Shown piece after piece: positions 24,589 to 57,607 of a stretch of 64,000 nucleotides of DNA (position 1 is its first letter; each line of letters begins with the position of its first letter). The DNA comes from Escherichia coli. GTDB lineage: Bacteria; Pseudomonadota; Gammaproteobacteria; Enterobacterales; Enterobacteriaceae. Made by a program: the position numbers and the translations under genes. The notes under the pieces were generated by a model. That model saw only the letters and a list, made by a program, of their open reading frames with translations. It made no database searches and had not been told where the DNA came from. The stretch is from the NCBI RefSeq assembly GCF_046105845.1, contig NZ_CP151004.1; one strand, 5' to 3'.

Positions 24589-25746
24589 ATGCACGTTACA
24601 GCCAAGCCCTCCAGTTTTCAATGTAATCTCAAATGTGATTACTGTTTTTACCTTGAAAAAGAGTCGCAGTTTACTCATGAAAAATGGATGGATGACAGCA
24701 CTCTGAAAGAGTTCATCAAACAATATATCGCAGCGTCTGGCAATCAGGTCTATTTTACGTGGCAAGGCGGTGAACCCACTCTGGCTGGTCTGGATTTTTT
24801 CCGTAAAGTTATTCACTATCAACAACGCTATGCAGGCCAAAAACGTATTTTTAATGCATTACAAACGAATGGCATTTTATTGAATAATGAATGGTGTGCC
24901 TTTCTCAAAGAACATGAGTTTCTGGTTGGTATCTCGATCGATGGACCCCAGGAGCTACATGACCGTTACAGACGCAGTAATTCAGGTAACGGTACTTTTG
25001 CAAAAGTGATAGCAGCCATCGAGCGTCTGAAATCATTTCAAGTAGAGTTTAATACGTTAACCGTCATTAATAACGTTAATGTCCATTACCCTCTTGAGGT
25101 TTATCATTTTTTAAAATCTATCGGCAGTAAACATATGCAATTTATCGAATTGCTCGAAACCGGGACGCCGAATATTGATTTCAGTGGTCATAGTGAGAAC
25201 ACATTCCGTATCATTGATTTTTCTGTGCCTCCTACGGCTTATGGCAAGTTTATGTCGACCATTTTTATGCAATGGGTTAAAAACGATGTGGGTGAAATTT
25301 TCATCCGTCAGTTTGAAAGCTTTGTCAGCCGTTTTTTGGGGAATGGGCATACCAGTTGTATTTTCCAGGAGTCCTGCAAGGATAATCTGGTTGTTGAAAG
25401 TAATGGAGACATTTACGAATGCGACCATTTTGTCTATCCACAGTACAAAATTGGAAACATTAATAAATCTGAACTCAAAACGATGAACAGTGTTCAACTG
25501 ACAGCGCAAAAAAAACGGATTTCAGCGAAATGTCAGCAATGTGCATATAAACTTATCTGCAATGGCGGTTGCCCTAAGCATCGTATTACTAAAGTAAACA
25601 ATGAGACTGTTTCCTATTTTTGCGAAGGTTATAAAATCCTTTTTTCAACCATGGTACCTTATATGAACGCCATGGTGGAGTTAGCCAAGAACAGAGTACC
25701 GCTTTACCACATTATGGATGTTGCAAAACAAATGGAGAATAATTAA
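24589..25746 (+). CDS. ydeM: Anaerobic sulfatase-maturating enzyme homolog (radical SAM, SPASM domain)
   Basis: 385-aa product [21 protein letters not shown]… (CxxxCxxC radical-SAM cluster motif) plus C-terminal Cys-rich region; adjacent to Ser-type sulfatase. Confidence 0.9.
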
Positions 25747-25992
25747 TAACGCTCCTTCTTTGCTCCAGTCTTAGCCTCCGTCTTATGACCTTAACAAAGC
25801 ACCCGACATAAATTCCTGTTGGGTGTTTCGTCATCATCATCTTCCCTTGCGAAAATCCTGGCTTACGTGGTATGCGTCAGGGCATTAGCAATATCCTTGA
25901 TTATCAATAGCATAACCATAACCACTGAAAATGAAATATTCCTTTATATTTCATATTGTTAAATGATACTTAAATAAATTTCATCAGTAAAT

Positions 25993-26016
25993 CATTGCCA
26001 TAGATAATCATTGGAT
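25993..26016. promoter_or_regulatory. Fur-box-like sequence (…TTGCCATAGATAATCATTGG…) upstream of yddA
   Basis: Contains GATAATCATT, a close match to the core of the Fur consensus GATAATGATAATCATTATC; 20-45 bp upstream of yddA start. Confidence 0.45.
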
Positions 26017-26036
26017 GGCACAATCAATTTTCGCTA

Positions 26037-27722
26037 ATGATAACCATTCCCATTACGTTTCGTATGTTGATAGCAAAGTATCTCTGTCTGCTGAAGCCCT
26101 TTTGGCTGCGTAAGAATAATAAAACTTCAGTGCTGTTAATCATTATTATCCTCGCCATGATCCTTGGCGTGGTTAAAATTCAGGTCTGGTTAAACGACTG
26201 GAATAATGATTTTTTCAATGCGCTAAGCCAGAAAGAAACCGATAAGCTTTGGCAGCTTGTTCTTTGGTTCCCTGCCCTGCTGGGGATCTTTGTATTAATA
26301 TCCGTAAACAAAACATGGTTAATTAAACTACTGACTATTCGCTGGCGCGAATGGTTAACAGATTACTACCTTAATCGCTGGTTTGCAGATAAAAACTACT
26401 ACTTCACGCAAATCTACGGCGAGCATAAAAATACAGATAACCCTGACCAACGTATCGCTGAAGACATTCTCTTACTGATCAGTAAAACGCTCAGCCTTTC
26501 ATTTGGCTTCATCCAGTCGCTTAGCATGCTGATCACCTTTACCGTTATTCTTTGGCAAAGCGCGGGTACGCTCTCATTCACTGTTGGTGGAACAGAATGG
26601 AATATCCAGGGGTATATGGTCTATACCGTCGTGCTCATTGTGATCGGTGGAACTTTATTTACTCATAAGGTGGGTAAACGTATTCGTCCGCTTAATGTGG
26701 AAAAACAACGTAGCGAAGCGACATTTCGAACTAATCTTGTGCAGCATAATAAGCAGGCTGAACTGATTGCGCTAAGCAATGCTGAGTCTCTACAACGCCA
26801 GGAGTTGAGCGACAATTTTCATACCATTAAAGAGAACTGGCATCGTTTAATGAATCGTCAGCGGTGGCTTGATTACTGGCAGAATATTTATTCGCGCTCG
26901 CTTAGCGTTCTTCCCTACTTTCTGTTATTGCCACAGTTTATTAGCGGACAGATCAATCTGGGCGGACTGATGAAATCGCGCCAGGCATTTATGCTGGTAT
27001 CGAACAATTTAAGCTGGTTTATTTATAAATATGATGAACTTGCTGAACTGGCTGCGGTTATCGATCGCTTGTATGAGTTCCATCAACTCACCGAACAGCG
27101 CCCTACGAATAAGCCTAAAAATTGCCAACATGCGGTACAAGTGGCTGACGCGAGTATTCGTACTCCTGATAATAAGATCATATTAGAGAACCTAAACTTT
27201 CATGTTTCGCCAGGCAAATGGCTATTACTGAAAGGTTACTCTGGTGCGGGAAAAACCACACTGCTTAAAACATTATCCCACTGCTGGCCGTGGTTTAAAG
27301 GTGATATTTCTTCTCCTGCTGACAGTTGGTATGTGTCACAAACACCGTTAATCAAAAGCGGCTTACTGAAAGAGATTATTTGTAAAGCACTTCCCCTGCC
27401 CGTAGACGATAAATCGTTGAGCGAAGTACTGCATCAGGTTGGTTTGGGGAAATTGGCTGCGCGTATTCATGACCACGATCGCTGGGGAGATATTCTTTCC
27501 AGCGGCGAAAAACAACGCATCGCGCTGGCACGATTAATTTTACGACGTCCGAAATGGATATTTCTTGACGAAACTACCTCTCATCTTGAGGAACAAGAGG
27601 CTATCCGCTTACTGTGTTTAGTGCGTGAAAAACTACCCACAAGCGGCGTCATTATGGTTACACATCAACCCGGTGTCTGGAACCTGGCCGATGATATTTG
27701 TGACATTAGCGCGGTTTTATAA
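26037..27722 (+). CDS. yddA: Fused ABC transporter permease/ATP-binding protein (exporter-type)
   Basis: 561-aa ORF; N-terminal TM domain, C-terminal NBD with Walker A GYSGAGKTT and ABC signature LSSGEKQR; matches K-12 YddA. Confidence 0.9.
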   Translation: MITIPITFRMLIAKYLCLLKPFWLRKNNKTSVLLIIIILAMILGVVKIQVWLNDWNNDFFNALSQKETDKLWQLVLWFPALLGIFVLISVNKTWLIKLLTIRWREWLTDYYLNRWFADKNYYFTQIYGEHKNTDNPDQRIAEDILLLISKTLSLSFGFIQSLSMLITFTVILWQSAGTLSFTVGGTEWNIQGYMVYTVVLIVIGGTLFTHKVGKRIRPLNVEKQRSEATFRTNLVQHNKQAELIALSNAESLQRQELSDNFHTIKENWHRLMNRQRWLDYWQNIYSRSLSVLPYFLLLPQFISGQINLGGLMKSRQAFMLVSNNLSWFIYKYDELAELAAVIDRLYEFHQLTEQRPTNKPKNCQHAVQVADASIRTPDNKIILENLNFHVSPGKWLLLKGYSGAGKTTLLKTLSHCWPWFKGDISSPADSWYVSQTPLIKSGLLKEIICKALPLPVDDKSLSEVLHQVGLGKLAARIHDHDRWGDILSSGEKQRIALARLILRRPKWIFLDETTSHLEEQEAIRLLCLVREKLPTSGVIMVTHQPGVWNLADDICDISAVL

Positions 27723-27759
27723 AAACAATAAAAGCCCTGCTGTACGGAGATAAAAATAA

Positions 27760-30132
27760 ATGAAGCGAGTTCTTATTCCTGGCGTCATTTTATGTGGCGC
27801 TGATGTGGCGCAGGCCGTCGATGACAAAAACATGTACATGCATGTTTTTGAAGAGATGACGGTCTATGCTCCTGTCCCTGTACCCGTAAACGGCAACACG
27901 CATTACACCAGTGAAAGCATCGAGCGTTTACCGACCGGGAATGGCAATATCAGCGATCTGCTGAGAACAAACCCTGCGGTACGCATGGATTCAACGCAAA
28001 GTACCTCGTTGAACCAGGGAGATATTCGCCCGGAGAAAATCTCTATTCACGGTGCGTCGCCCTATCAGAATGCCTATTTGATTGACGGTATTAGTGCAAC
28101 TAACAACCTGAATCCAGCGAATGAGTCCGATGCCAGTAGTGCAACCAATATTAGCGGGATGTCACAGGGGTATTATCTTGATGTCAGCTTACTGGACAAT
28201 GTGACGCTTTATGACAGTTTTGTGCCGGTTGAATTCGGTCGCTTCAATGGCGGGGTAATTGATGCAAAGATCAAACGCTTCAACGCTGATGATAGCAGCG
28301 TGAAACTGGGTTATCGCACTACGCGTTCGGACTGGTTAACATCGCATATCGATGAGAATAACAAGAGCGCATTTAATCAAGGTTCTTCAGGAAGTACTTA
28401 TTTCTCTCCAGATTTTAAAAAGAACTTTTATACCTTGTCGTTTAATCAGGAACTGGCTGATAACTTTGGCGTTACTGCCGGTTTATCGCGCCGCCAGTCT
28501 GATATCACCCGCGCGGATTATGTTTCGAATGACGGCATTGTCGCCGGTCGGGCACAGTATAAAAATGTTATCGATACCGCATTGAGCAAATTTACCTGGT
28601 TTGCCAGCGACCGCTTTACCCACGATTTAACCTTAAAATATACCGGCTCCAGTCGTGATTATAATACCAGCACCTTCCCGCAGTCTGATCGCGAAATGGG
28701 TAATAAATCCTACGGTCTGGCATGGGATATGGATACGCATCTCGCATGGGCCAAACTACGTACCACCGTTGGTTGGGATCATATTAGTGATTATACCCGT
28801 CACGATCATGACATCTGGTACACCGAACTTTCATGTACATATGGTGATATTACAGGGCGTTGCACCCGTGGCGGATTAGGACACATTTCCCAGGCTGTAG
28901 ATAATTACACCTTCAAAACACGCCTGGACTGGCAAAAATTCACCGTGGGTAATGTTTCGCATCAACCCTACTTCGGCGCGGAATACATCTATTCCGATGC
29001 ATGGACTGAACGCCATAACCAGTCTGAATCCTATGTGATTAATGCTGCCGGAAAGAAAACTAACCATACCATTTACCATAAAGGTAAAGGCAGCCTGGGA
29101 ATTGACAACTACACGCTGTATATGGCGGATCGCATTAGCTGGCGTAATGTGTCATTAATGCCCGGCGTGCGGTATGACTATGACAACTATCTGTCAAACC
29201 ACAATATCTCCCCGCGCTTTATGACGGAATGGGATATTTTTGCTGATCAAACCTCAATGATTACCGCAGGTTATAACCGTTACTATGGCGGGAATATTCT
29301 TGATATGGGATTACGTGATATCCGCAATAGCTGGACGGAATCGGTATCAGGCAATAAAACCCTGACGCGTTATCAGGATTTGAAAACGCCTTATAACGAT
29401 GAACTGGCAATGGGATTGCAGCAAAAAATCGGTAAGAACGTTATTGCGCGCGCAAACTATGTTTACCGTGAAGCGCATGATCAAATCAGCAAAAGCAGTC
29501 GTACCGACAGCGCGACTAAAACCACCATTACTGAATATAACAACGACGGCAAAACCAAAACGCATTCGTTCAACCTCAGTTTTGAACTGGCCGAACCCCT
29601 GCATATCAGCCAGGTAGATATTAACCCGCAAATTGTCTTTAGCTATATCAAGAGCAAGGGCAACTTGTCGTTAAACAATGGTTATGAGGAAAGCAATACC
29701 GGTGATAACCAGGTGGTTTATAACGGTAATCTGGTCTCTTACGATAGCGTTCCAGTGGCAGATTTTAATAACCCATTAAAGATCTCCTTAAACATGGATT
29801 TCACGCATCAACCGAGCGGGTTGGTGTGGGCGAATACGCTGGCCTGGCAAGAAGCGCGTAAAGCTCGCATTATCCTTGGTAAGACAAATGCGCAATACAT
29901 CAGTGAATATTCAGATTACAAGCAGTATGTTGACGAAAAACTGGATAGCAGCCTGACCTGGGACACCCGCTTGTCCTGGACGCCACAATTTCTGAAACAA
30001 CAAAACCTGACGATCAGTGCCGATATTCTCAATGTACTGGATAGCAAAACCGCGGTTGATACAACGAATACCGGTGTGGCGACCTACGCCAGTGGCCGTA
30101 CTTTCTGGCTTGATGTCAGCATGAAATTTTAA
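27760..30132 (+). CDS. yddB: TonB-dependent outer-membrane receptor-like protein
   Basis: 790-aa ORF with signal peptide, plug-like N-terminal region and C-terminal …WLDVSMKF (terminal aromatic); gene order matches K-12 yddB. Confidence 0.9.
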   Translation: MKRVLIPGVILCGADVAQAVDDKNMYMHVFEEMTVYAPVPVPVNGNTHYTSESIERLPTGNGNISDLLRTNPAVRMDSTQSTSLNQGDIRPEKISIHGASPYQNAYLIDGISATNNLNPANESDASSATNISGMSQGYYLDVSLLDNVTLYDSFVPVEFGRFNGGVIDAKIKRFNADDSSVKLGYRTTRSDWLTSHIDENNKSAFNQGSSGSTYFSPDFKKNFYTLSFNQELADNFGVTAGLSRRQSDITRADYVSNDGIVAGRAQYKNVIDTALSKFTWFASDRFTHDLTLKYTGSSRDYNTSTFPQSDREMGNKSYGLAWDMDTHLAWAKLRTTVGWDHISDYTRHDHDIWYTELSCTYGDITGRCTRGGLGHISQAVDNYTFKTRLDWQKFTVGNVSHQPYFGAEYIYSDAWTERHNQSESYVINAAGKKTNHTIYHKGKGSLGIDNYTLYMADRISWRNVSLMPGVRYDYDNYLSNHNISPRFMTEWDIFADQTSMITAGYNRYYGGNILDMGLRDIRNSWTESVSGNKTLTRYQDLKTPYNDELAMGLQQKIGKNVIARANYVYREAHDQISKSSRTDSATKTTITEYNNDGKTKTHSFNLSFELAEPLHISQVDINPQIVFSYIKSKGNLSLNNGYEESNTGDNQVVYNGNLVSYDSVPVADFNNPLKISLNMDFTHQPSGLVWANTLAWQEARKARIILGKTNAQYISEYSDYKQYVDEKLDSSLTWDTRLSWTPQFLKQQNLTISADILNVLDSKTAVDTTNTGVATYASGRTFWLDVSMKF

Positions 30133-30188
30133 TAGTTCGGATTTTACTTAACCGGGTAAATTTGCCCGGTTTTCGCATGGAGATAATT

Positions 30189-32972
30189 ATGAGAAACCTC
30201 TGTTTCTTACTGACGTTAGTGGCAACTCTGTTGCTCCCCGGGCGACTGATTGCCGCCGCCTTACCGCAGGATGAAAAGTTAATTACCGGGCAACTGGACA
30301 ATGGCTTGCGATATATGATTTATCCGCATGCTCAACCAAAGGATCAGGTAAATTTATGGCTGCAAATTCATACCGGTTCATTGCAGGAAGAGGACAATGA
30401 GCGCGGCGTGGCTCATTTTGTAGAACATATGATGTTTAACGGCACAAAAACATGGCCGGGTAATAAAGTCATCGAAACATTTGAGTCAATGGGCCTGCGT
30501 TTTGGTCGCGATGTTAATGCCTATACCAGCTATGACGAAACGGTGTATCAGGTGAGTTTGCCGACTACGCAGAAACAAAATCTGCAACAAGTGATGGCAA
30601 TCTTTAGTGAATGGAGTAATGCCGCAAGCTTTGAAAAACTCGAAGTAGACGCTGAACGCGGCGTAATTACTGAGGAATGGCGTGCCCATCAGGATGCGAA
30701 ATGGCGCACCTCTCAGGCGCGCCGCCCTTTCCTGCTGGCTAATACCCGTAATTTAGACCGTGAACCTATCGGCCTGATGGATACTGTCGCCACGGTCACA
30801 CCGGCACAATTGCGCCAATTTTATCAACGCTGGTATCAACCAAATAATATGACCTTTATCGTGGTCGGCGATATTGACAGTAAAGAAGCGCTGGCGCTGA
30901 TTAAGGATAATTTAAGTAAGCTTCCGGCTAACAAAGTAGCTGAAAATCGCGTCTGGCCGACAAAAGCCGAAAACCACCTGCGCTTTAATATCATTAATGA
31001 TAAAGAAAACCGGGTGAACGGCATCGCACTCTATTATCGCCTGCCAATGGTGCAAGTGAGCGATGAGCAAAGCTTTATCGAACAAGCTGAATGGAGCATG
31101 TTGGTTCAGCTGTTCAATCAGCGTCTGCAGGAACGCATACAGTCGGGCGAGTTGAAGACTATTTCTGGCGGCACTGCGCGCAGCGTTAAAATTGCACCCG
31201 ATTATCAGTCGCTGTTTTTCCGTGTAAATGCACGAGACGATAATATGCAGGATGCTGCGAATGCATTAATGGCAGAGTTGGCAACTATTGATCAGCATGG
31301 TTTTTCTGCTGAAGAACTCGATGATGTCAAATCTACCCGCCTCACCTGGCTGAAAAATGCGGTTGATCAGCAAGCTGAACGTGATTTACGTATGCTGACC
31401 AGTCGCCTGGCATCCAGCTCATTAAATAATACGCCGTTCTTGTCGCCGGAAGAGACATATCAACTTTCGAAACGTCTGTGGCAGCAAATTACCGTGCAAA
31501 GTCTGGCGGAAAAATGGCAGCAGTTAAGAAAGAACCAGGACGCATTTTGGGAGCAAATGGTAAACAATGAGGTTGCCGCAAAAAAAGCATTGTCTCCTGC
31601 GGCTATCCTGGCGCTGAAAAAAGAGTACGCCAACAAAAAGCTGGCGGCTTACATCTTCCCAGGCAGAAATTTATCGTTAACAGTAGACGCTGACCCACAG
31701 GCGGAAATTAGCAGCAAAGAAACGCTGGCTGAGAATCTGACATCATTAACACTTTCCAATGGTGCCAGGGTTATTCTGGCAAAATCCGCGGGTGAAGAGC
31801 AAAAGCTACAAATTACTGCCGTATCTAATAAAGGCGATTTAAGTTTCCCTGCGCAGCAAAAATCACTTATCGCGCTGGCAAATAAAGCAGTAAGCGGAAG
31901 CGGCGTTGGTGAACTCTCCTCTTCCAGCCTGAAACGCTGGAGTGCGGAAAACTCGGTAACCATGAGCAGTAAAGTCAGTGGCATGAATACGTTGCTCTCC
32001 GTTAGCGCGCGGGCTAATAACCCTGAACCTGGTTTCCAGTTGATTAACCAGCGAATCACCCACAGCACGATTAACGACAATATTTGGGCATCGCTACAAA
32101 ATGCTCAAATTCAGGCGTTGAAAACGCTCGACCAGCGTCCAGCGGAGAAATTCGCCCAGCAGATGTATGAGACGCGCTATGCTGATGACCGCACGAAATT
32201 ACTGCAAGAAAATCAGATTGCACAGTTTACTGCCGCAGATGCGCTGGCTGCCGATCGCCAGTTGTTTTCATCTCCAGCGGATATCACGTTTGTCATTGTC
32301 GGTAATGTCGCAGAAGACAAACTCGTGGCGTTAATTACGCGTTACTTAGGGTCAATCAAACACTCTGATTCGCCATTAGCCGCAGGTAAACCATTAACTC
32401 GCGCGACGGACAACGCATCGGTTACTGTAAAAGAACAAAATGAACCTGTGGTACAGGTTTCACAGTGGAAGCGTTATGATTCCCGGACACCTGTTAATCT
32501 GGCGACGCGTATGGCGCTCGATGCTTTTAACGTCGCACTGGCAAAAGATCTACGCGTTAATATTCGTGAACAGGCCTCTGGGGCATACAGCGTTTCTTCT
32601 CGCCTCTCGGTTGATCCTCAGGCCAAAGATATCAGTCATTTGCTGGCTTTTACTTGTCAACCGGAACGACATGATGAACTGTTAACGTTAGCGAATGAAG
32701 TGATGGTTAAGCGTCTGGCTAAAGGGATCAGTGAGCAAGAACTGAACGAATACCAGCAAAACGTTCAGCGCAGCCTCGATATCCAACAGCGTAGCGTTCA
32801 ACAATTAGCGAACACCATTGTAAATAGTCTTATTCAATATGACGATCCTGCAGCATGGACTGAGCAGGAGCAATTATTGAAACAAATGACGGTAGAGAAT
32901 GTTAACACTGCCGTTAAACAATATCTTTCTCATCCGGTGAATACCTATACCGGAGTATTATTGCCAAAATAA
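30189..32972 (+). CDS. pqqL: Periplasmic M16-family zinc metallopeptidase (pitrilysin-like)
   Basis: 931-aa product MRNLCFLLTLVATLLLPGRLIAA…; inverted zinc-binding motif HFVEH at approx. residue 85; matches K-12 PqqL. Confidence 0.9.
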   Translation: MRNLCFLLTLVATLLLPGRLIAAALPQDEKLITGQLDNGLRYMIYPHAQPKDQVNLWLQIHTGSLQEEDNERGVAHFVEHMMFNGTKTWPGNKVIETFESMGLRFGRDVNAYTSYDETVYQVSLPTTQKQNLQQVMAIFSEWSNAASFEKLEVDAERGVITEEWRAHQDAKWRTSQARRPFLLANTRNLDREPIGLMDTVATVTPAQLRQFYQRWYQPNNMTFIVVGDIDSKEALALIKDNLSKLPANKVAENRVWPTKAENHLRFNIINDKENRVNGIALYYRLPMVQVSDEQSFIEQAEWSMLVQLFNQRLQERIQSGELKTISGGTARSVKIAPDYQSLFFRVNARDDNMQDAANALMAELATIDQHGFSAEELDDVKSTRLTWLKNAVDQQAERDLRMLTSRLASSSLNNTPFLSPEETYQLSKRLWQQITVQSLAEKWQQLRKNQDAFWEQMVNNEVAAKKALSPAAILALKKEYANKKLAAYIFPGRNLSLTVDADPQAEISSKETLAENLTSLTLSNGARVILAKSAGEEQKLQITAVSNKGDLSFPAQQKSLIALANKAVSGSGVGELSSSSLKRWSAENSVTMSSKVSGMNTLLSVSARANNPEPGFQLINQRITHSTINDNIWASLQNAQIQALKTLDQRPAEKFAQQMYETRYADDRTKLLQENQIAQFTAADALAADRQLFSSPADITFVIVGNVAEDKLVALITRYLGSIKHSDSPLAAGKPLTRATDNASVTVKEQNEPVVQVSQWKRYDSRTPVNLATRMALDAFNVALAKDLRVNIREQASGAYSVSSRLSVDPQAKDISHLLAFTCQPERHDELLTLANEVMVKRLAKGISEQELNEYQQNVQRSLDIQQRSVQQLANTIVNSLIQYDDPAAWTEQEQLLKQMTVENVNTAVKQYLSHPVNTYTGVLLPK

Positions 32973-33234
32973 TAACAGCCCCGTCAACACCTCGTTGGCG
33001 GGGATTTTAGCAATATTCGCTATTTTTATGTAATAATTTTATAAATGCGTTCAAAATAATAACCAAGTACTAATAGTGATATTTTAAGGTCTGATTTTTA
33101 CGTGATAATTCAGGAGGCGTAGAAAGTGCATAAAAATAACAGCATAAAACACCTTGCCATCACCCAAGAATTCAATAATGTATTGATTTTCAATGATAAA
33201 ATATTATTCGCATAATATCTCACGATAAATAACA

Positions 33235-33254
33235 TTAGGATTTTGTTATTTAAA
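33235..33254 (+). promoter_or_regulatory. GAD box (GadE binding site) TTAGGATTTTGTTATTTAAA in gadB promoter
   Basis: Exact 20-bp GAD box sequence as remembered for gadA/gadBC promoters, about 80 bp upstream of the gadB ATG. Confidence 0.8.
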
Positions 33255-33333
33255 CACGAGTCCTTTGCACTTGCTTACTTTATCGATAAATCCTACTTTT
33301 TTAATGCGATCCAATCATTTTAAGGAGTTTAAA

Positions 33334-54559: not shown

Positions 54560-57500
54560 TTACGCCTTCTCGATGTTTACTAAGAACGCTTTATATTCCG
54601 GCGTTTGCGAGTTTGCATCACCGACATTAGGCGTCAGAGTGTTAGCGATGTAACCTTTACGCGCGACACCCTCAAAGCCCCAGTGGATTGGAATACCCAC
54701 CGTTTCAACCTGCTGACCGTTTACATTCAGCGGCTTCAGACGGCGCGTTACCACAGCCACCGCGCGGATAAAACCACGCTTGCTGGAGACAGTGACACGA
54801 TCGCCATTATTAATGCCTTTCGCCGCCGCCAGCGTTTCGCTGATTTCCACAAACTGTTCCGGCTGAGCAATTGCGTTGAGCAACGCGTGCTTGGTCCAGG
54901 TGTGGAAGTGCTCGGTCAGACGATAGGTCGTACCCACATACGGGAACTGCTCTTTTTTACCCATCCGCAGCGCGTCTTGTTCATACAGACGAACCACCGG
55001 GTTAGACACCACGTTCGGATGCAGCGGGTTAGTGCCCAGCGGCGTTTCAATCGGCTCGTAGTGTTCCGGGAACGGACCTTCCGCCATTTTGTTGATGGCA
55101 AACAGGCGTCCCATCCCTTCCGGCTGCATGATAAACGGTCCGGTTAGTGTACCTGGCGCGGCATTGCCGAAGTCCGGAATATCGTTACCCGTCCACTTGC
55201 TGCCGTTCCACTGGATCAGCATCCGTTTCGGATCCCACGGTTTACCGTTGATATCCGCCGAAGCACGGTTGTACAGCACGCGACGGTTGAGCGGCCACGC
55301 CCAGGCCCATCCCAGCGTATTCCCCAGACCGGACGGGTCGGAGTTATCGCGGTTAGCCATCTGGTTGCCCTGCTCTGTCCAGCTACCAGTGTAGATCCAG
55401 CAAGAAGATGCGGTTGTACCGTCATCACGCAGATGCGCAAAGCTACTCAGCAACTGACCTTTCTTCGCAATCAGCACGCCATTAGCATCATAGAGATCTT
55501 CCAGCGCATAGCCGTTGTTCTCTTTAGCTACTTCGTCAGATTGCGGTTCGTGCGGCTGCTTGTAGTTCCAGCTCATCTTCATCAGCGGTTCTACGCCTTT
55601 GCCACCTTCGGCCTGGTACAACTCGCGCAGATGATGGTAGATACCCGCCAGAATTTCGCCGTCGTTACGCGCTTCGCCCGGCGCGTCCTGACCTTTCCAG
55701 TGCCACTGCAACCAGCGACCGGAGTTAGCGATAGAACCATCTTCTTCAGCAAAGCAGGTCGAAGGCAGACGGAATACTTCAGTCTGAATAGACGCCGGAT
55801 CGACATCGTTCGACTCGCCGTGGTTCTGCCAGAAGGTTGAGGTTTCAGTCACCAGCGGATCGATAACCACCATGTACTTCAGTTTGCTCAGGCAGCTCAC
55901 CACTTTGTTTTTGTCCGGGAAGGACGCAACCGGGTTAAAGCCCTGGCAGAAATAACCGGTGACTTTGCCTTCGTCCATCATGTTGAAATACTTGATGACG
56001 TCGTAGGTCTGGTCCCACTTCGGCAGCCAGTCGTAGCCCCAGTTGTTTTCTTTCTGCGCGGCATCGCCATAGAAAGATTTCATCAGGCTAACGAAGAACT
56101 TCGGATAGTTGCTCCAGTAGTTCACCTGATCAGCCAGCGTCGCTTTCGGCGTATTCGCTTCCAGATACGACTGCAAATCAACCTGTTTTTCTGACGGCAG
56201 CGTCAGATAACCCGGCAGGCTGGTTGAGAGCAGACCTAAGTCGGTCAGCCCCTGAATGTTGGAGTGACCACGCAATGCGTTCACGCCGCCACCGGCCATA
56301 CCCATGTTACCGAGCAGTAACTGGATCATCGCCATAGTACGGATGTTCTGCGCACCCACGGTGTGCTGCGTCCAGCCCAGCGCGTAAAGGAAGGTGGTTG
56401 TGCGATCCGGTGCGCTGGTGGAGGCCAGCACTTCACACACTTTCAGGAAGTCGGCTTTTGGCGTACCACAGATGTTTTCTACTACGTCCGGCGTGTAGCG
56501 GGAAACGTGCTCTTTCAGCAAGTTCCACACACAGCGCGGATGAGTCAGTGTTTCATCGCGTTTCGCATAGCCGTTTTCATCGAACTGATAGTTCCAGGAC
56601 GATTTATCGTATTGACGTTTTTCAGCGTCGTAGCCGCTGAACAGACCGTCTTCGAAAGCAAAATCATCACGCACCAGCAGACTGGCGTTGGTGTAATGCT
56701 TAACGTATTCGGCGTTGATTTTGTTGTTTTCGATCAGGTAGCGCAAAACGCCAGACAGGAACGTAATGTCCGTACCGGAACGAATAGGTGCGTAAATATC
56801 CGCTACAGAAGCGGTACGCGTAAAACGGGGATCGACAACGATCAAGGTTGCATCGTTGTTGTTTTTCGCTTCCATCGCCCAGCGGAAACCGACGGGATGC
56901 GCTTCAGCAGCGTTACCACCCATCACCATTACGACGTTAGCGTTTTTGATATCCACCCAGTGGTTGGTCATCGCACCGCGACCAAATGTTGGAGCAAGAC
57001 TTGCTACCGTTGGTCCGTGTCAGACGCGCGCCTGGTTGTCTACCGCCAGCATCCCGAGGGAGCGGGCAAATTTTTGAGTCAGCATCCCGGTTTCGTTGCT
57101 GGCACCGGAGGCACACAGCATACCGGTAGAAAGCCAACGGTTTACCGTTACGCCCTGCTCGTTCTTTTCAATAAAGTTAGCGTCACGGTCAGCTTTCATC
57201 AGCTTGGCAATACGGGAGAATGCTTCATCCCAGCTAATGCGCTGCCATTTATCAGAACCTGGCGCACGATATTCCGGGTAGCGCAGACGGTTTTCGCTGT
57301 TGACGTAATCCAGCAAACCGGCCCCTTTCGGGCACAGCGCACCACGGCTTACCGGATGATCCGGGTCACCTTCAATGTGATAAATCGCTTCTCTGGCGTT
57401 TTTCGCGCCATCACCCAGGCTATACATCAATAGCCCGCAACCTACGGAACAGTATGTGCAGGTGTTACGGATCTCTTTCGCGCGTAATAATTTATAGTTT

Positions 57501-57607
57501 CGCGCCTGAGCCAGTGCTTGCTTCGGGGCAAAGCCCAATGCCGCTACCGTTGTTCCAGCCATACCGCCCGCGCAGATTTTAAAAAATTGTCTGCGACTGA
57601 CGTCCAT
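54560..57607 (-). CDS. fdnG: Formate dehydrogenase-N alpha subunit, selenoprotein (Tat signal; in-frame UGA = Sec)
   Basis: Two ORF-track pieces (57020..57607 and 54560..56971) are one 1015-codon frame interrupted only by TGA at 57020..57022 (minus strand); N-terminus MDVSRRQFFK (twin-arginine); sequence continues …VDNQARV-U-HGPTVASLAPTFGRGAMTNHW…. Confidence 0.9.
56975..57019 (-). other. Predicted SECIS region immediately 3' of the fdnG UGA codon
   Basis: mRNA 3' of UGA reads CACGGACCAACGGUAGCAAGUCUUGCUCCAACAUUUGGUCGCGG with a short AGCAAG/CUUGCU hairpin; bacterial SECIS elements lie directly downstream of the Sec codon. Exact fold not computed. Confidence 0.5.

What the first reader, a model, noticed from the sequence alone, without database searches (positions are those of the whole stretch)
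25993..32972. yddA-yddB-pqqL: candidate Fur-controlled protease-associated import system
An ABC exporter-type gene, a TonB-dependent receptor and a periplasmic M16 peptidase with the inverted HxxEH zinc motif lie co-directionally, preceded by a Fur-box-like sequence. The receptor plus M16 protease pairing resembles the FusA/FusC ferredoxin-uptake system of Pectobacterium, where an iron-containing host protein is imported and then proteolysed. The substrate in E. coli is not firmly established.
Basis: partly seen in the sequence, partly recalled or inferred. Interest (0 to 1): 0.55.

Follow-up and report, generated by a model that had tools for sequence, protein, structure and literature searches.

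The report
Known Fur-repressed yddA-yddB-pqqL import operon
This is the well-studied E. coli yddA-yddB-pqqL operon, an iron-regulated outer-membrane transporter, periplasmic protease and inner-membrane ABC transporter already proposed in print to import and digest a still unidentified protein, so the finding is correct but not new.

Summary
yddA (26037-27722) has an SbmA/BacA-type membrane domain plus an ABC ATPase. yddB (27760-30132) is a TonB-dependent transporter. pqqL (30177/30189-32972) is a single-chain M16 peptidase with HFVEH at residues 80-84. All three are intact and on the + strand.

YddB matches only two solved structures by sequence: its own and the ferredoxin receptor FusA. PqqL matches FusC over its full length.

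The convincing Fur box is 26033-26051. It is the joint-best consensus match in the 64 kb window, it is conserved, and the published CFT073 Fur ChIP coordinate falls on it.

The ABC-receptor-protease module recurs in at least five unrelated genomic contexts. In four of them the best Fur-like site of the locus lies just upstream of the ABC gene.

All of this, including the Fus analogy, co-transcription, Fur regulation, crystal structures and the unknown substrate, was published between 2013 and 2019. A 2025 review still lists no substrate. Verdict: correct interpretation, already known, low interest. Two small additions: the yddA start is probably ATG 26064, and a conserved hairpin sits between yddB and pqqL.

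The parts
25995..26024 (+). Promoter-like site: -35 TTGCCA (25995-26000), 18-nt spacer, extended -10 TGgCACAAT (26016-26024)
   Evidence: Consensus scan. The scan as a whole is not above chance (17 found, 16.6 expected). However, TGGCACAAT and most of the -35 are conserved in E. fergusonii although the spacer is not. The block 25968-26057 is nearly invariant in six E. coli strains. The transcription start is inferred, not shown.
25997..26015 (+).
   Evidence: It matches the Fur consensus at 12/19 and is not above chance. It is not conserved in E. fergusonii. It could at most be an auxiliary part of an extended Fur array.
26033..26057 (+). Main Fur box: GCTAATGATAACCATTCCC (26033-26051, 15/19), with a second register six bases on at 26039-26057 (13/19)
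   Evidence: It is the joint-best match in the 64 kb window and is reached in 0.5% of shuffles. It is conserved at 15/19 in E. fergusonii. It equals the published box GGGAATGGTTATCATTAG (PMC3855560). The CFT073 Fur ChIP coordinate 1765013 falls on the yddA start codon.
26037..27722 (+). yddA: fused inner-membrane ABC transporter (SbmA/BacA-type membrane domain plus ATPase), 561 aa as annotated; the conserved start is probably ATG 26064
   Evidence: Pfam domains. The best solved relative is 6TQE/6TQF (E 9e-67). Walker A, signature and Walker B motifs are intact and invariant across homologues. Start-codon argument.
27760..30132 (+). yddB: FusA-clade TonB-dependent outer-membrane transporter, 790 aa, with GGAG 9 nt upstream of the ATG
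30150..30171 (+). Hairpin followed by a U-run in the yddB-pqqL spacer (possible partial terminator or RNA-stabilising element)
   Evidence: -13.8 kcal/mol, z -3.2. The CCGGG/CCCGG stem and T-run are kept in E. fergusonii with a different loop. Read-through was shown by RT-PCR in CFT073 (PMC3855560).
30177..32972 (+). pqqL: periplasmic single-chain M16B zinc peptidase, 931 aa from ATG 30177 (RefSeq uses ATG 30189); signal peptide ends ...LIA/AALPQ; HFVEH 80-84; Glu167
   Evidence: The crystal chain 6OFS begins at residue 27.
32979..33003 (+). Terminator-like hairpin 6 nt after the pqqL stop codon, followed by AUUUUA
   Evidence: -18.6 kcal/mol, z -4.2. A different hairpin occupies the same position in E. 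fergusonii.

Best explanation
This is the Fur-repressed yddA-yddB-pqqL operon of E. coli, a Fus-like protease-associated import system. The proposed mechanism has four steps. (1) When iron is plentiful, Fur-Fe2+ binds the box at 26033-26051, immediately downstream of the -10 element, and blocks transcription. When iron is scarce (urine, serum), the three genes are transcribed as one mRNA. (2) YddB, energised by the general TonB because no dedicated TonB gene is present, captures a small globular protein or large peptide of up to about 28 Angstrom in its unusually large extracellular pocket and moves it into the periplasm. (3) PqqL closes around the cargo and cleaves it, releasing an iron-containing cofactor or cofactor-bearing peptides. 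(4) YddA, an exporter-fold ABC transporter of the SbmA/BacA-like family whose characterised relatives import hydrophilic cargo, carries the product into the cytoplasm. Shown by sequence here or by experiment in the literature: gene identities and folds, Fur binding and derepression, co-transcription, periplasmic location and peptidase activity of PqqL, and a fitness contribution in mouse bacteraemia. Inferred only: that a protein is imported, that iron is the cargo, and that YddA transports inward.
Against: No substrate is known. PqqL did not cleave human ferredoxins, globins or plant ferredoxin. yddB and pqqL deletions grow like wild type in iron-limited LB, even in a strain lacking all other TonB-dependent transporters (PMC6793856). 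One study saw no transcript change with dipyridyl alone in CFT073 (PMC3855560). A dedicated TonB homologue (FusB) is required for ferredoxin import in Pectobacterium (PMC7593965) but is absent here and in all related loci examined. One paper reports YddA as a drug exporter (PMC9728188).
Confidence: 0.75

Rival explanations
1. The system imports a protein or large peptide, but the useful product is peptide or amino-acid nutrition or a non-iron cofactor. Fur control would then reflect only the host environment. YddA would import the peptides that PqqL produces.
For: The membrane domain of YddA belongs to the SbmA/BacA family, whose characterised members import peptides (PMC8442886 and PMC12912959). 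Untargeted metabolomics linked yddA to faster depletion of proline, a glutamyl dipeptide and other amino-acid derivatives (PMC10971958). There is no growth phenotype under iron limitation (PMC6793856).
Against: A strong, conserved Fur box precedes the module in five loci spanning 45-86% identity. The Fur ChIP value for yddA (657) is close to those listed beside it for gpmA (677) and nrdH (849). The distant relative in Oryzisolibacter pairs the receptor with a di-haem cytochrome c peroxidase instead of a protease, which points to redox or metal chemistry on the cargo.
Confidence: 0.15
2. YddA is an ATP-driven multidrug efflux pump, and its neighbourhood with yddB and pqqL has no functional meaning.
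For: MIC and dye or norfloxacin accumulation assays in acrB-deleted E. coli were interpreted as YddA-dependent efflux (PMC9728188). The fold is the ABC exporter type.
Against: The classical exporter membrane domain PF00664 does not match significantly (E about 2), whereas ABC_membrane_2 and SbmA_BacA do. The three genes stay together, mostly in the same order, in five unrelated contexts and are co-transcribed. Earlier overexpression studies found no change in drug resistance, as summarised in PMC10971958. Repression by Fur is not typical of drug pumps.
Confidence: 0.05
3. PqqL takes part in pyrroloquinoline-quinone (PQQ) biosynthesis or processing, as its historical name suggests, and YddB takes up PQQ or a precursor.
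For: E. coli pqqL was reported to complement pqqE/pqqF mutants of Methylobacterium organophilum (cited in PMC3855560). There is a weak match to the PqqF model (E 1.3e-12, 47 bits).
Against: The PqqF match is far below the curated cutoff of 320 bits. E. coli does not make PQQ (PMC3855560). PqqL is much closer to FusC than to any PqqF-type entry in PDB.
Confidence: 0.02

Closest known systems
Ferredoxin uptake system FusABCD of Pectobacterium and Dickeya
   Different: There is no dedicated TonB homologue (FusB) here or in related loci. The gene order is ABC-receptor-protease rather than the order in fus. Plant ferredoxin is not cleaved by PqqL and the cargo is unknown. Import of a protein has not been shown.
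Published E. coli K-12 / CFT073 yddA-yddB-pqqL operon (structures 6OFR, 6OFS, 6OFT)
   Same: It is the same locus. YddB and PqqL in the window are about 99% identical to the crystallised proteins. The DNA is 98.9% identical to RefSeq E. coli genomes. The neighbours are the same: ydeM on one side, gadB and gadC on the other.
   Different: There are only allelic differences. For example, eight substitutions are visible across the 761 aligned YddB residues.
Rv1819c (M. tuberculosis) and SbmA/BacA transporters
   Same: The YddA membrane domain hits Pfam SbmA_BacA and ABC_membrane_2, and the best PDB match is 6TQE/6TQF. These are exporter-fold proteins that import hydrophilic cargo such as vitamin B12 and peptides.
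   Different: The substrate and transport direction of YddA are not established. SbmA and BacA lack the ATPase domain. YddA is encoded next to an outer-membrane receptor and a protease.
YddB-like receptor paired with a di-haem cytochrome c peroxidase (Achromobacter/Bordetella cluster of Grinter 2019)
   Same: The receptor family is the same. The Oryzisolibacter homologue (30% identity) is followed by a CCP_MauG gene, as described in PMC6793856.
   Different: That variant has no M16 protease and no SbmA-type ABC gene, so it presumably releases the cofactor by reduction rather than proteolysis.

Membership tests
Fus-type protease-associated import system | Outer-membrane transporter of the FusA clade, closer to FusA than to other TonB-dependent transporters | tested here: met
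   phmmer against all PDB sequences returns only 6OFR (YddB itself) and FusA 4ZGV/9RHR at E 1.4e-80. No other TonB-dependent transporter reaches 1e-3.
Fus-type protease-associated import system | Adjacent secreted single-chain M16 protease related to FusC with an intact HxxEH...E active site | tested here: met
   PqqL matches FusC (6B03/6B05/6BRS) at E about 1e-58 over residues 9-930. It has HFVEH at 80-84 and Glu167. Pfam finds M16 plus two M16_C domains. An N-terminal signal peptide is present, and the crystal chain starts at residue 27.
Fus-type protease-associated import system | Fused inner-membrane ABC transporter in the same cluster (FusD-like) | tested here: met
   YddA has ABC_membrane_2/SbmA_BacA plus ABC_tran domains. 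The same architecture lies next to the receptor in five other loci. Direct comparison with the FusD sequence was not run; that homology is stated in PMC5095587.
Fus-type protease-associated import system | System-specific TonB homologue (FusB) encoded in the cluster | tested here: not met
   No TonB-like gene lies between ydeM and gadB. None is listed in any related locus. FusB is required in Pectobacterium (PMC7593965).
Fus-type protease-associated import system | Demonstrated uptake of an intact protein into the periplasm followed by its cleavage | not testable with these tools
   This has not been shown for YddB/PqqL in the literature either. The proteins tested were not cleaved (PMC6793856), and the substrate is listed as n/a in the 2025 review (PMC12731061).
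TonB-dependent transporter | N-terminal TonB box, plug domain, beta-barrel and C-terminal aromatic residue | tested here: met
   The Plug domain matches at E 1.3e-6. EEMTVYA aligns with D/E-x-hydrophobic-V-V-x-A motifs in 13 homologues, and all end in Phe. The 22-strand barrel is known from the solved structure 6OFR, which is about 99% identical.
Fur regulon (direct target) | 19-bp Fur box overlapping the promoter or transcription start | tested here: met
   A 15/19 match at 26033-26051 is the joint best in the 64 kb window and is reached in 0.5% of shuffles. It lies 9 bp downstream of the predicted -10 and is conserved in E. fergusonii. Analogous best-in-locus sites occur in L009, L010 and L013.
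Fur regulon (direct target) | Fur occupancy in vivo and derepression in a fur mutant | not testable with these tools
   From the literature: CFT073 ChIP value 657 at coordinate 1765013, which falls on the yddA start codon, and 42-56-fold derepression (PMC7157518 supplement). Fur is also bound upstream in K-12 (PMC4676285).
ABC multidrug exporter | Classical type I exporter membrane domain (Pfam ABC_membrane PF00664) and outward drug transport | tested here: inconclusive
   PF00664 matches only at E about 2, while PF06472 and PF05992 match at 1e-43 and 1e-33. Transport direction cannot be tested here, and the literature conflicts.

The most novel reading that the evidence does not exclude
YddA may import peptide fragments, possibly still carrying an Fe-S cluster, haem or other metal, that PqqL cuts from a protein brought in by YddB. 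That would make the operon a complete three-compartment line taking a protein from outside the cell to a peptide in the cytoplasm. The cargo would be a specific small protein of the host or of the gut microbiota that has not been tried yet. The system would also work with the housekeeping TonB, unlike Fus.
Probability: 0.25. Interest if true: 0.6.

Novelty: already known. Interest (0 to 1): 0.15.

Why it matters
The operon matters biologically. It contributes to fitness of uropathogenic E. coli in bloodstream infection, and it is one of the few candidates for whole-protein import across the outer membrane. Its cargo is still an open question. The finding adds nothing to what was published in 2013-2019, though. 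The practical value of this re-check is narrow. It points any Fur EMSA or footprint at 26033-26051 rather than 25990-26020. It suggests the yddA start codon is ATG 26064. It shows that Fur control travels with the three-gene module across distant bacteria, which strengthens the case for a metal-related cargo.

Tried and rejected
1. It was rejected as the main operator.
2. The sigma-70 and terminator consensus scan over the operon gave counts equal to chance. Only the site supported by conservation was kept, and both hairpins were checked separately by folding.
3. NCBIfam gave no family for YddB and only sub-threshold hits for YddA and PqqL, so it did not help with naming.
4. PDB entry 9LDY, an M16 peptidase closer to PqqL than FusC is, could not be traced to a paper.
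5. The supplement of PMC4676285, needed for the K-12 Fur ChIP position, is not held.
6. The Corticibacter homologue P0039 could not be located on a contig.
7. The PQQ-biosynthesis reading and the drug-efflux reading were considered and judged unlikely (see the rival explanations).
8. I did not run the large genome contigs or metagenome scans, structure prediction or fold searches. Solved structures and a published family survey already answer those questions.
Full report
**What is in the sequence**

The interval holds three + strand ORFs: 26037-27722 (561 aa), 27760-30132 (790 aa) and 30162-32972. The stretch 25700-33300 is 98.9% identical to RefSeq E. coli chromosomes. There it is annotated ydeM | yddA | yddB | pqqL | gadB gadC. 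Of 5,426 complete E. coli genomes, 5,412 have a match and 4,603 carry at least 80% of the stretch in one piece. All three reading frames in the window are full length.

**The proteins**

YddA has Pfam ABC_membrane_2 (E 2e-43), SbmA_BacA (E 2e-33) and ABC_tran domains. The classical exporter membrane domain PF00664 does not match. Its best solved relative is the mycobacterial Rv1819c-type transporter 6TQE/6TQF (E 9e-67), followed by ABCD-family proteins.

YddB has only a Plug domain in Pfam and no NCBIfam model. Against all PDB sequences it matches just two: its own structure 6OFR and the ferredoxin receptor FusA 4ZGV (E 1.4e-80, two stretches covering the plug and the barrel). A TonB-box-like motif (EEMTVYA) and the terminal Phe are conserved in 13 homologues down to about 26% identity.

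PqqL has Peptidase_M16 and two M16_C domains. It has HFVEH at residues 80-84 and Glu167, counting from ATG 30177. It also has a signal peptide: the crystallised chain 6OFS begins at residue 27. After its own structures, its best PDB matches are an unnamed M16 peptidase 9LDY (E 3e-81) and FusC 6B03/6B05/6BRS (E about 1e-58, end to end).

**The Fur box**

I scanned the whole window with the 19-bp consensus GATAATGATAATCATTATC.
- The joint-best match (15/19) is GCTAATGATAACCATTCCC at 26033-26051.
- A second register lies six bases on (13/19 at 26039).

In 2,000 dinucleotide shuffles of the 354-bp intergenic region, a match of 15 or better appears in 0.5% of shuffles. A match of 12 or better appears in 64%.

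Six E. coli strains show a nearly invariant block at 25968-26057, against about 16% variable columns further upstream. The more distant E. fergusonii discriminates between the two sites. The extended -10 TGGCACAAT and CGCTAATGATAA are conserved, and the downstream box again scores 15/19.

The downstream box is the one published for CFT073 (GGGAATGGTTATCATTAG on the other strand; PMC3855560). The Fur ChIP coordinate listed for yddA in CFT073, 1765013, falls on the yddA start codon. That supplement also gives 42-56-fold derepression of yddA, yddB and pqqL in a fur mutant. Fur binding upstream in K-12 is reported in PMC4676285.

Fur control is therefore well founded, but the operator is 26033-26051, not 25990-26020. 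It might be a flanking part of an extended Fur array, but nothing requires that.

**Operon structure**

- The yddA-yddB spacer is 37 bp, with GGAG before the yddB ATG and no structure.
- The yddB-pqqL spacer holds a hairpin at 30150-30171 (-13.8 kcal/mol, z -3.2) followed by a U-run. Its stem is kept in E. fergusonii with a different loop.
- A stronger hairpin (-18.6 kcal/mol, z -4.2) follows the pqqL stop at 32979-33003.
- Co-transcription of all three genes was shown by RT-PCR (PMC3855560).

**Related loci**

A search with YddB found 62 proteins at E 1e-10 or better.
- The same ABC-receptor-M16 order occurs in E. fergusonii (86% identity), on two unnamed metagenome or read-assembly contigs (61% and 44%) and in an Orbaceae bacterium (45%). 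Each sits among different neighbouring genes.
- In Muribacter muris (28%) the receptor and protease are followed by the ABC gene on the other strand.
- In Oryzisolibacter (30%) the receptor is followed by a di-haem cytochrome c peroxidase, with no protease. This is the variant Grinter et al. described.
- In the four loci with the E. coli gene order, the best Fur-consensus match of the entire 14-18 kb locus (15-16/19, with phased secondary matches) lies in the short spacer just upstream of the ABC gene.
- No locus contains a TonB-like gene.

**What is known**

The Fus analogy for YddB, PqqL and YddA was stated in 2016 (PMC5095587) and tested in 2019 (PMC6793856).
- PqqL is periplasmic, active on F/Y-F/Y-V/A peptides, and induced by bipyridine and by urine.
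- PqqL does not cleave human ferredoxins, globins or plant ferredoxin.
- yddB and pqqL deletions show no growth defect in iron-limited LB.
- yddB and pqqL mutants are outcompeted in mouse bacteraemia, and the genes are induced more than 30-fold in urine (PMC3855560).
- The genes are also induced in serum (PMC4145685).
- A December 2025 review still lists the PqqL substrate as not available (PMC12731061).
- My literature searches from 2020 onward found no substrate report.

**Mechanism and rivals**

The best explanation is the published one: Fur-repressed, TonB-dependent import of a small protein, cleavage by PqqL, and inward transport of the product by YddA. I put this at about 0.75. The import step, the iron cargo and the direction of YddA transport remain inferences.

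The main rival keeps the import line but makes the useful product peptides or a non-iron cofactor (about 0.15). It rests on the SbmA/BacA kinship of YddA, on metabolomics and on the lack of an iron phenotype.

A drug-efflux role for YddA (PMC9728188) fits poorly with the conserved linkage and Fur control. The historical PQQ reading is not supported.

Compared with Fus, one defining part is missing: the dedicated TonB homologue FusB, which is required there (PMC7593965). This is a Fus-like system, not a full Fus system.

**Verdict**

Both are already in the literature. Interest is low.

Noticed in passing
window 26037-26066: The annotated yddA start (ATG 26037) adds nine residues, MITIPITFR, that no homologue has. 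In E. fergusonii the same ATG runs into an in-frame TAG after six codons, and the gene is called from the ATG equivalent to window 26064. The true start is probably 26064. That would place the Fur box between the -10 element and the start codon rather than on the start codon.
   Followed up: partly
window 30150-30171: A hairpin with a U-run lies between yddB and pqqL. Its stem is conserved in E. fergusonii with a different loop. It may be a partial terminator or a processing or stabilising element that sets the YddB:PqqL ratio.
   Followed up: partly
window 26129-26153: A third cluster of Fur-consensus-like matches (13-14/19, GTTAATCATTATTATCCTC) lies inside yddA. It falls in codons for an Ile/Leu-rich membrane helix, so it may be a by-product of coding.
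   Followed up: no
window 25712-25834 (- strand): A small ORF annotated in RefSeq as YneP or as a hypothetical protein overlaps the 3' end of ydeM on the opposite strand.
   Followed up: no
window 56967-57025 (- strand): Rfam SECIS_3 matches at 84 bits, between the - strand ORFs 54560-56971 and 57020-57607. This is a selenoprotein gene, presumably a formate dehydrogenase, that the ORF list splits at its UGA codon.
   Followed up: no
L008 8001-10364: A 70%-identical YddB homologue occurs in an assembly labelled E. coli O146. It lies about 3.4 kb from IS66- and IS110-family transposase genes and has no ABC gene upstream. The best Fur-like site of the locus (15/19) is about 190 bp upstream. The contig ends about 500 bp downstream of the gene, so a protease gene cannot be excluded.
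   Followed up: partly
L011 8001-11652: In Oryzisolibacter a 30%-identical YddB homologue is followed by a CCP_MauG di-haem peroxidase gene instead of an M16 protease. This independently reproduces the variant described by Grinter et al. in 2019.
   Followed up: yes
window 25700-33300 versus E. coli genomes: About 15% of complete E. coli genomes lack a contiguous copy of the locus (4,603 of 5,426 have at least 80% in one place). One top hit has an ISEc47 insertion splitting yddB. The protein search also returned many truncated or fused YddB products.
   Followed up: no
PDB 9LDY, versus PqqL (window 30177-32969): An unnamed 916-aa M16-family peptidase structure is closer to PqqL (E 3e-81) than FusC is (E 2e-58). 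No paper mentioning it was found.
   Followed up: partly
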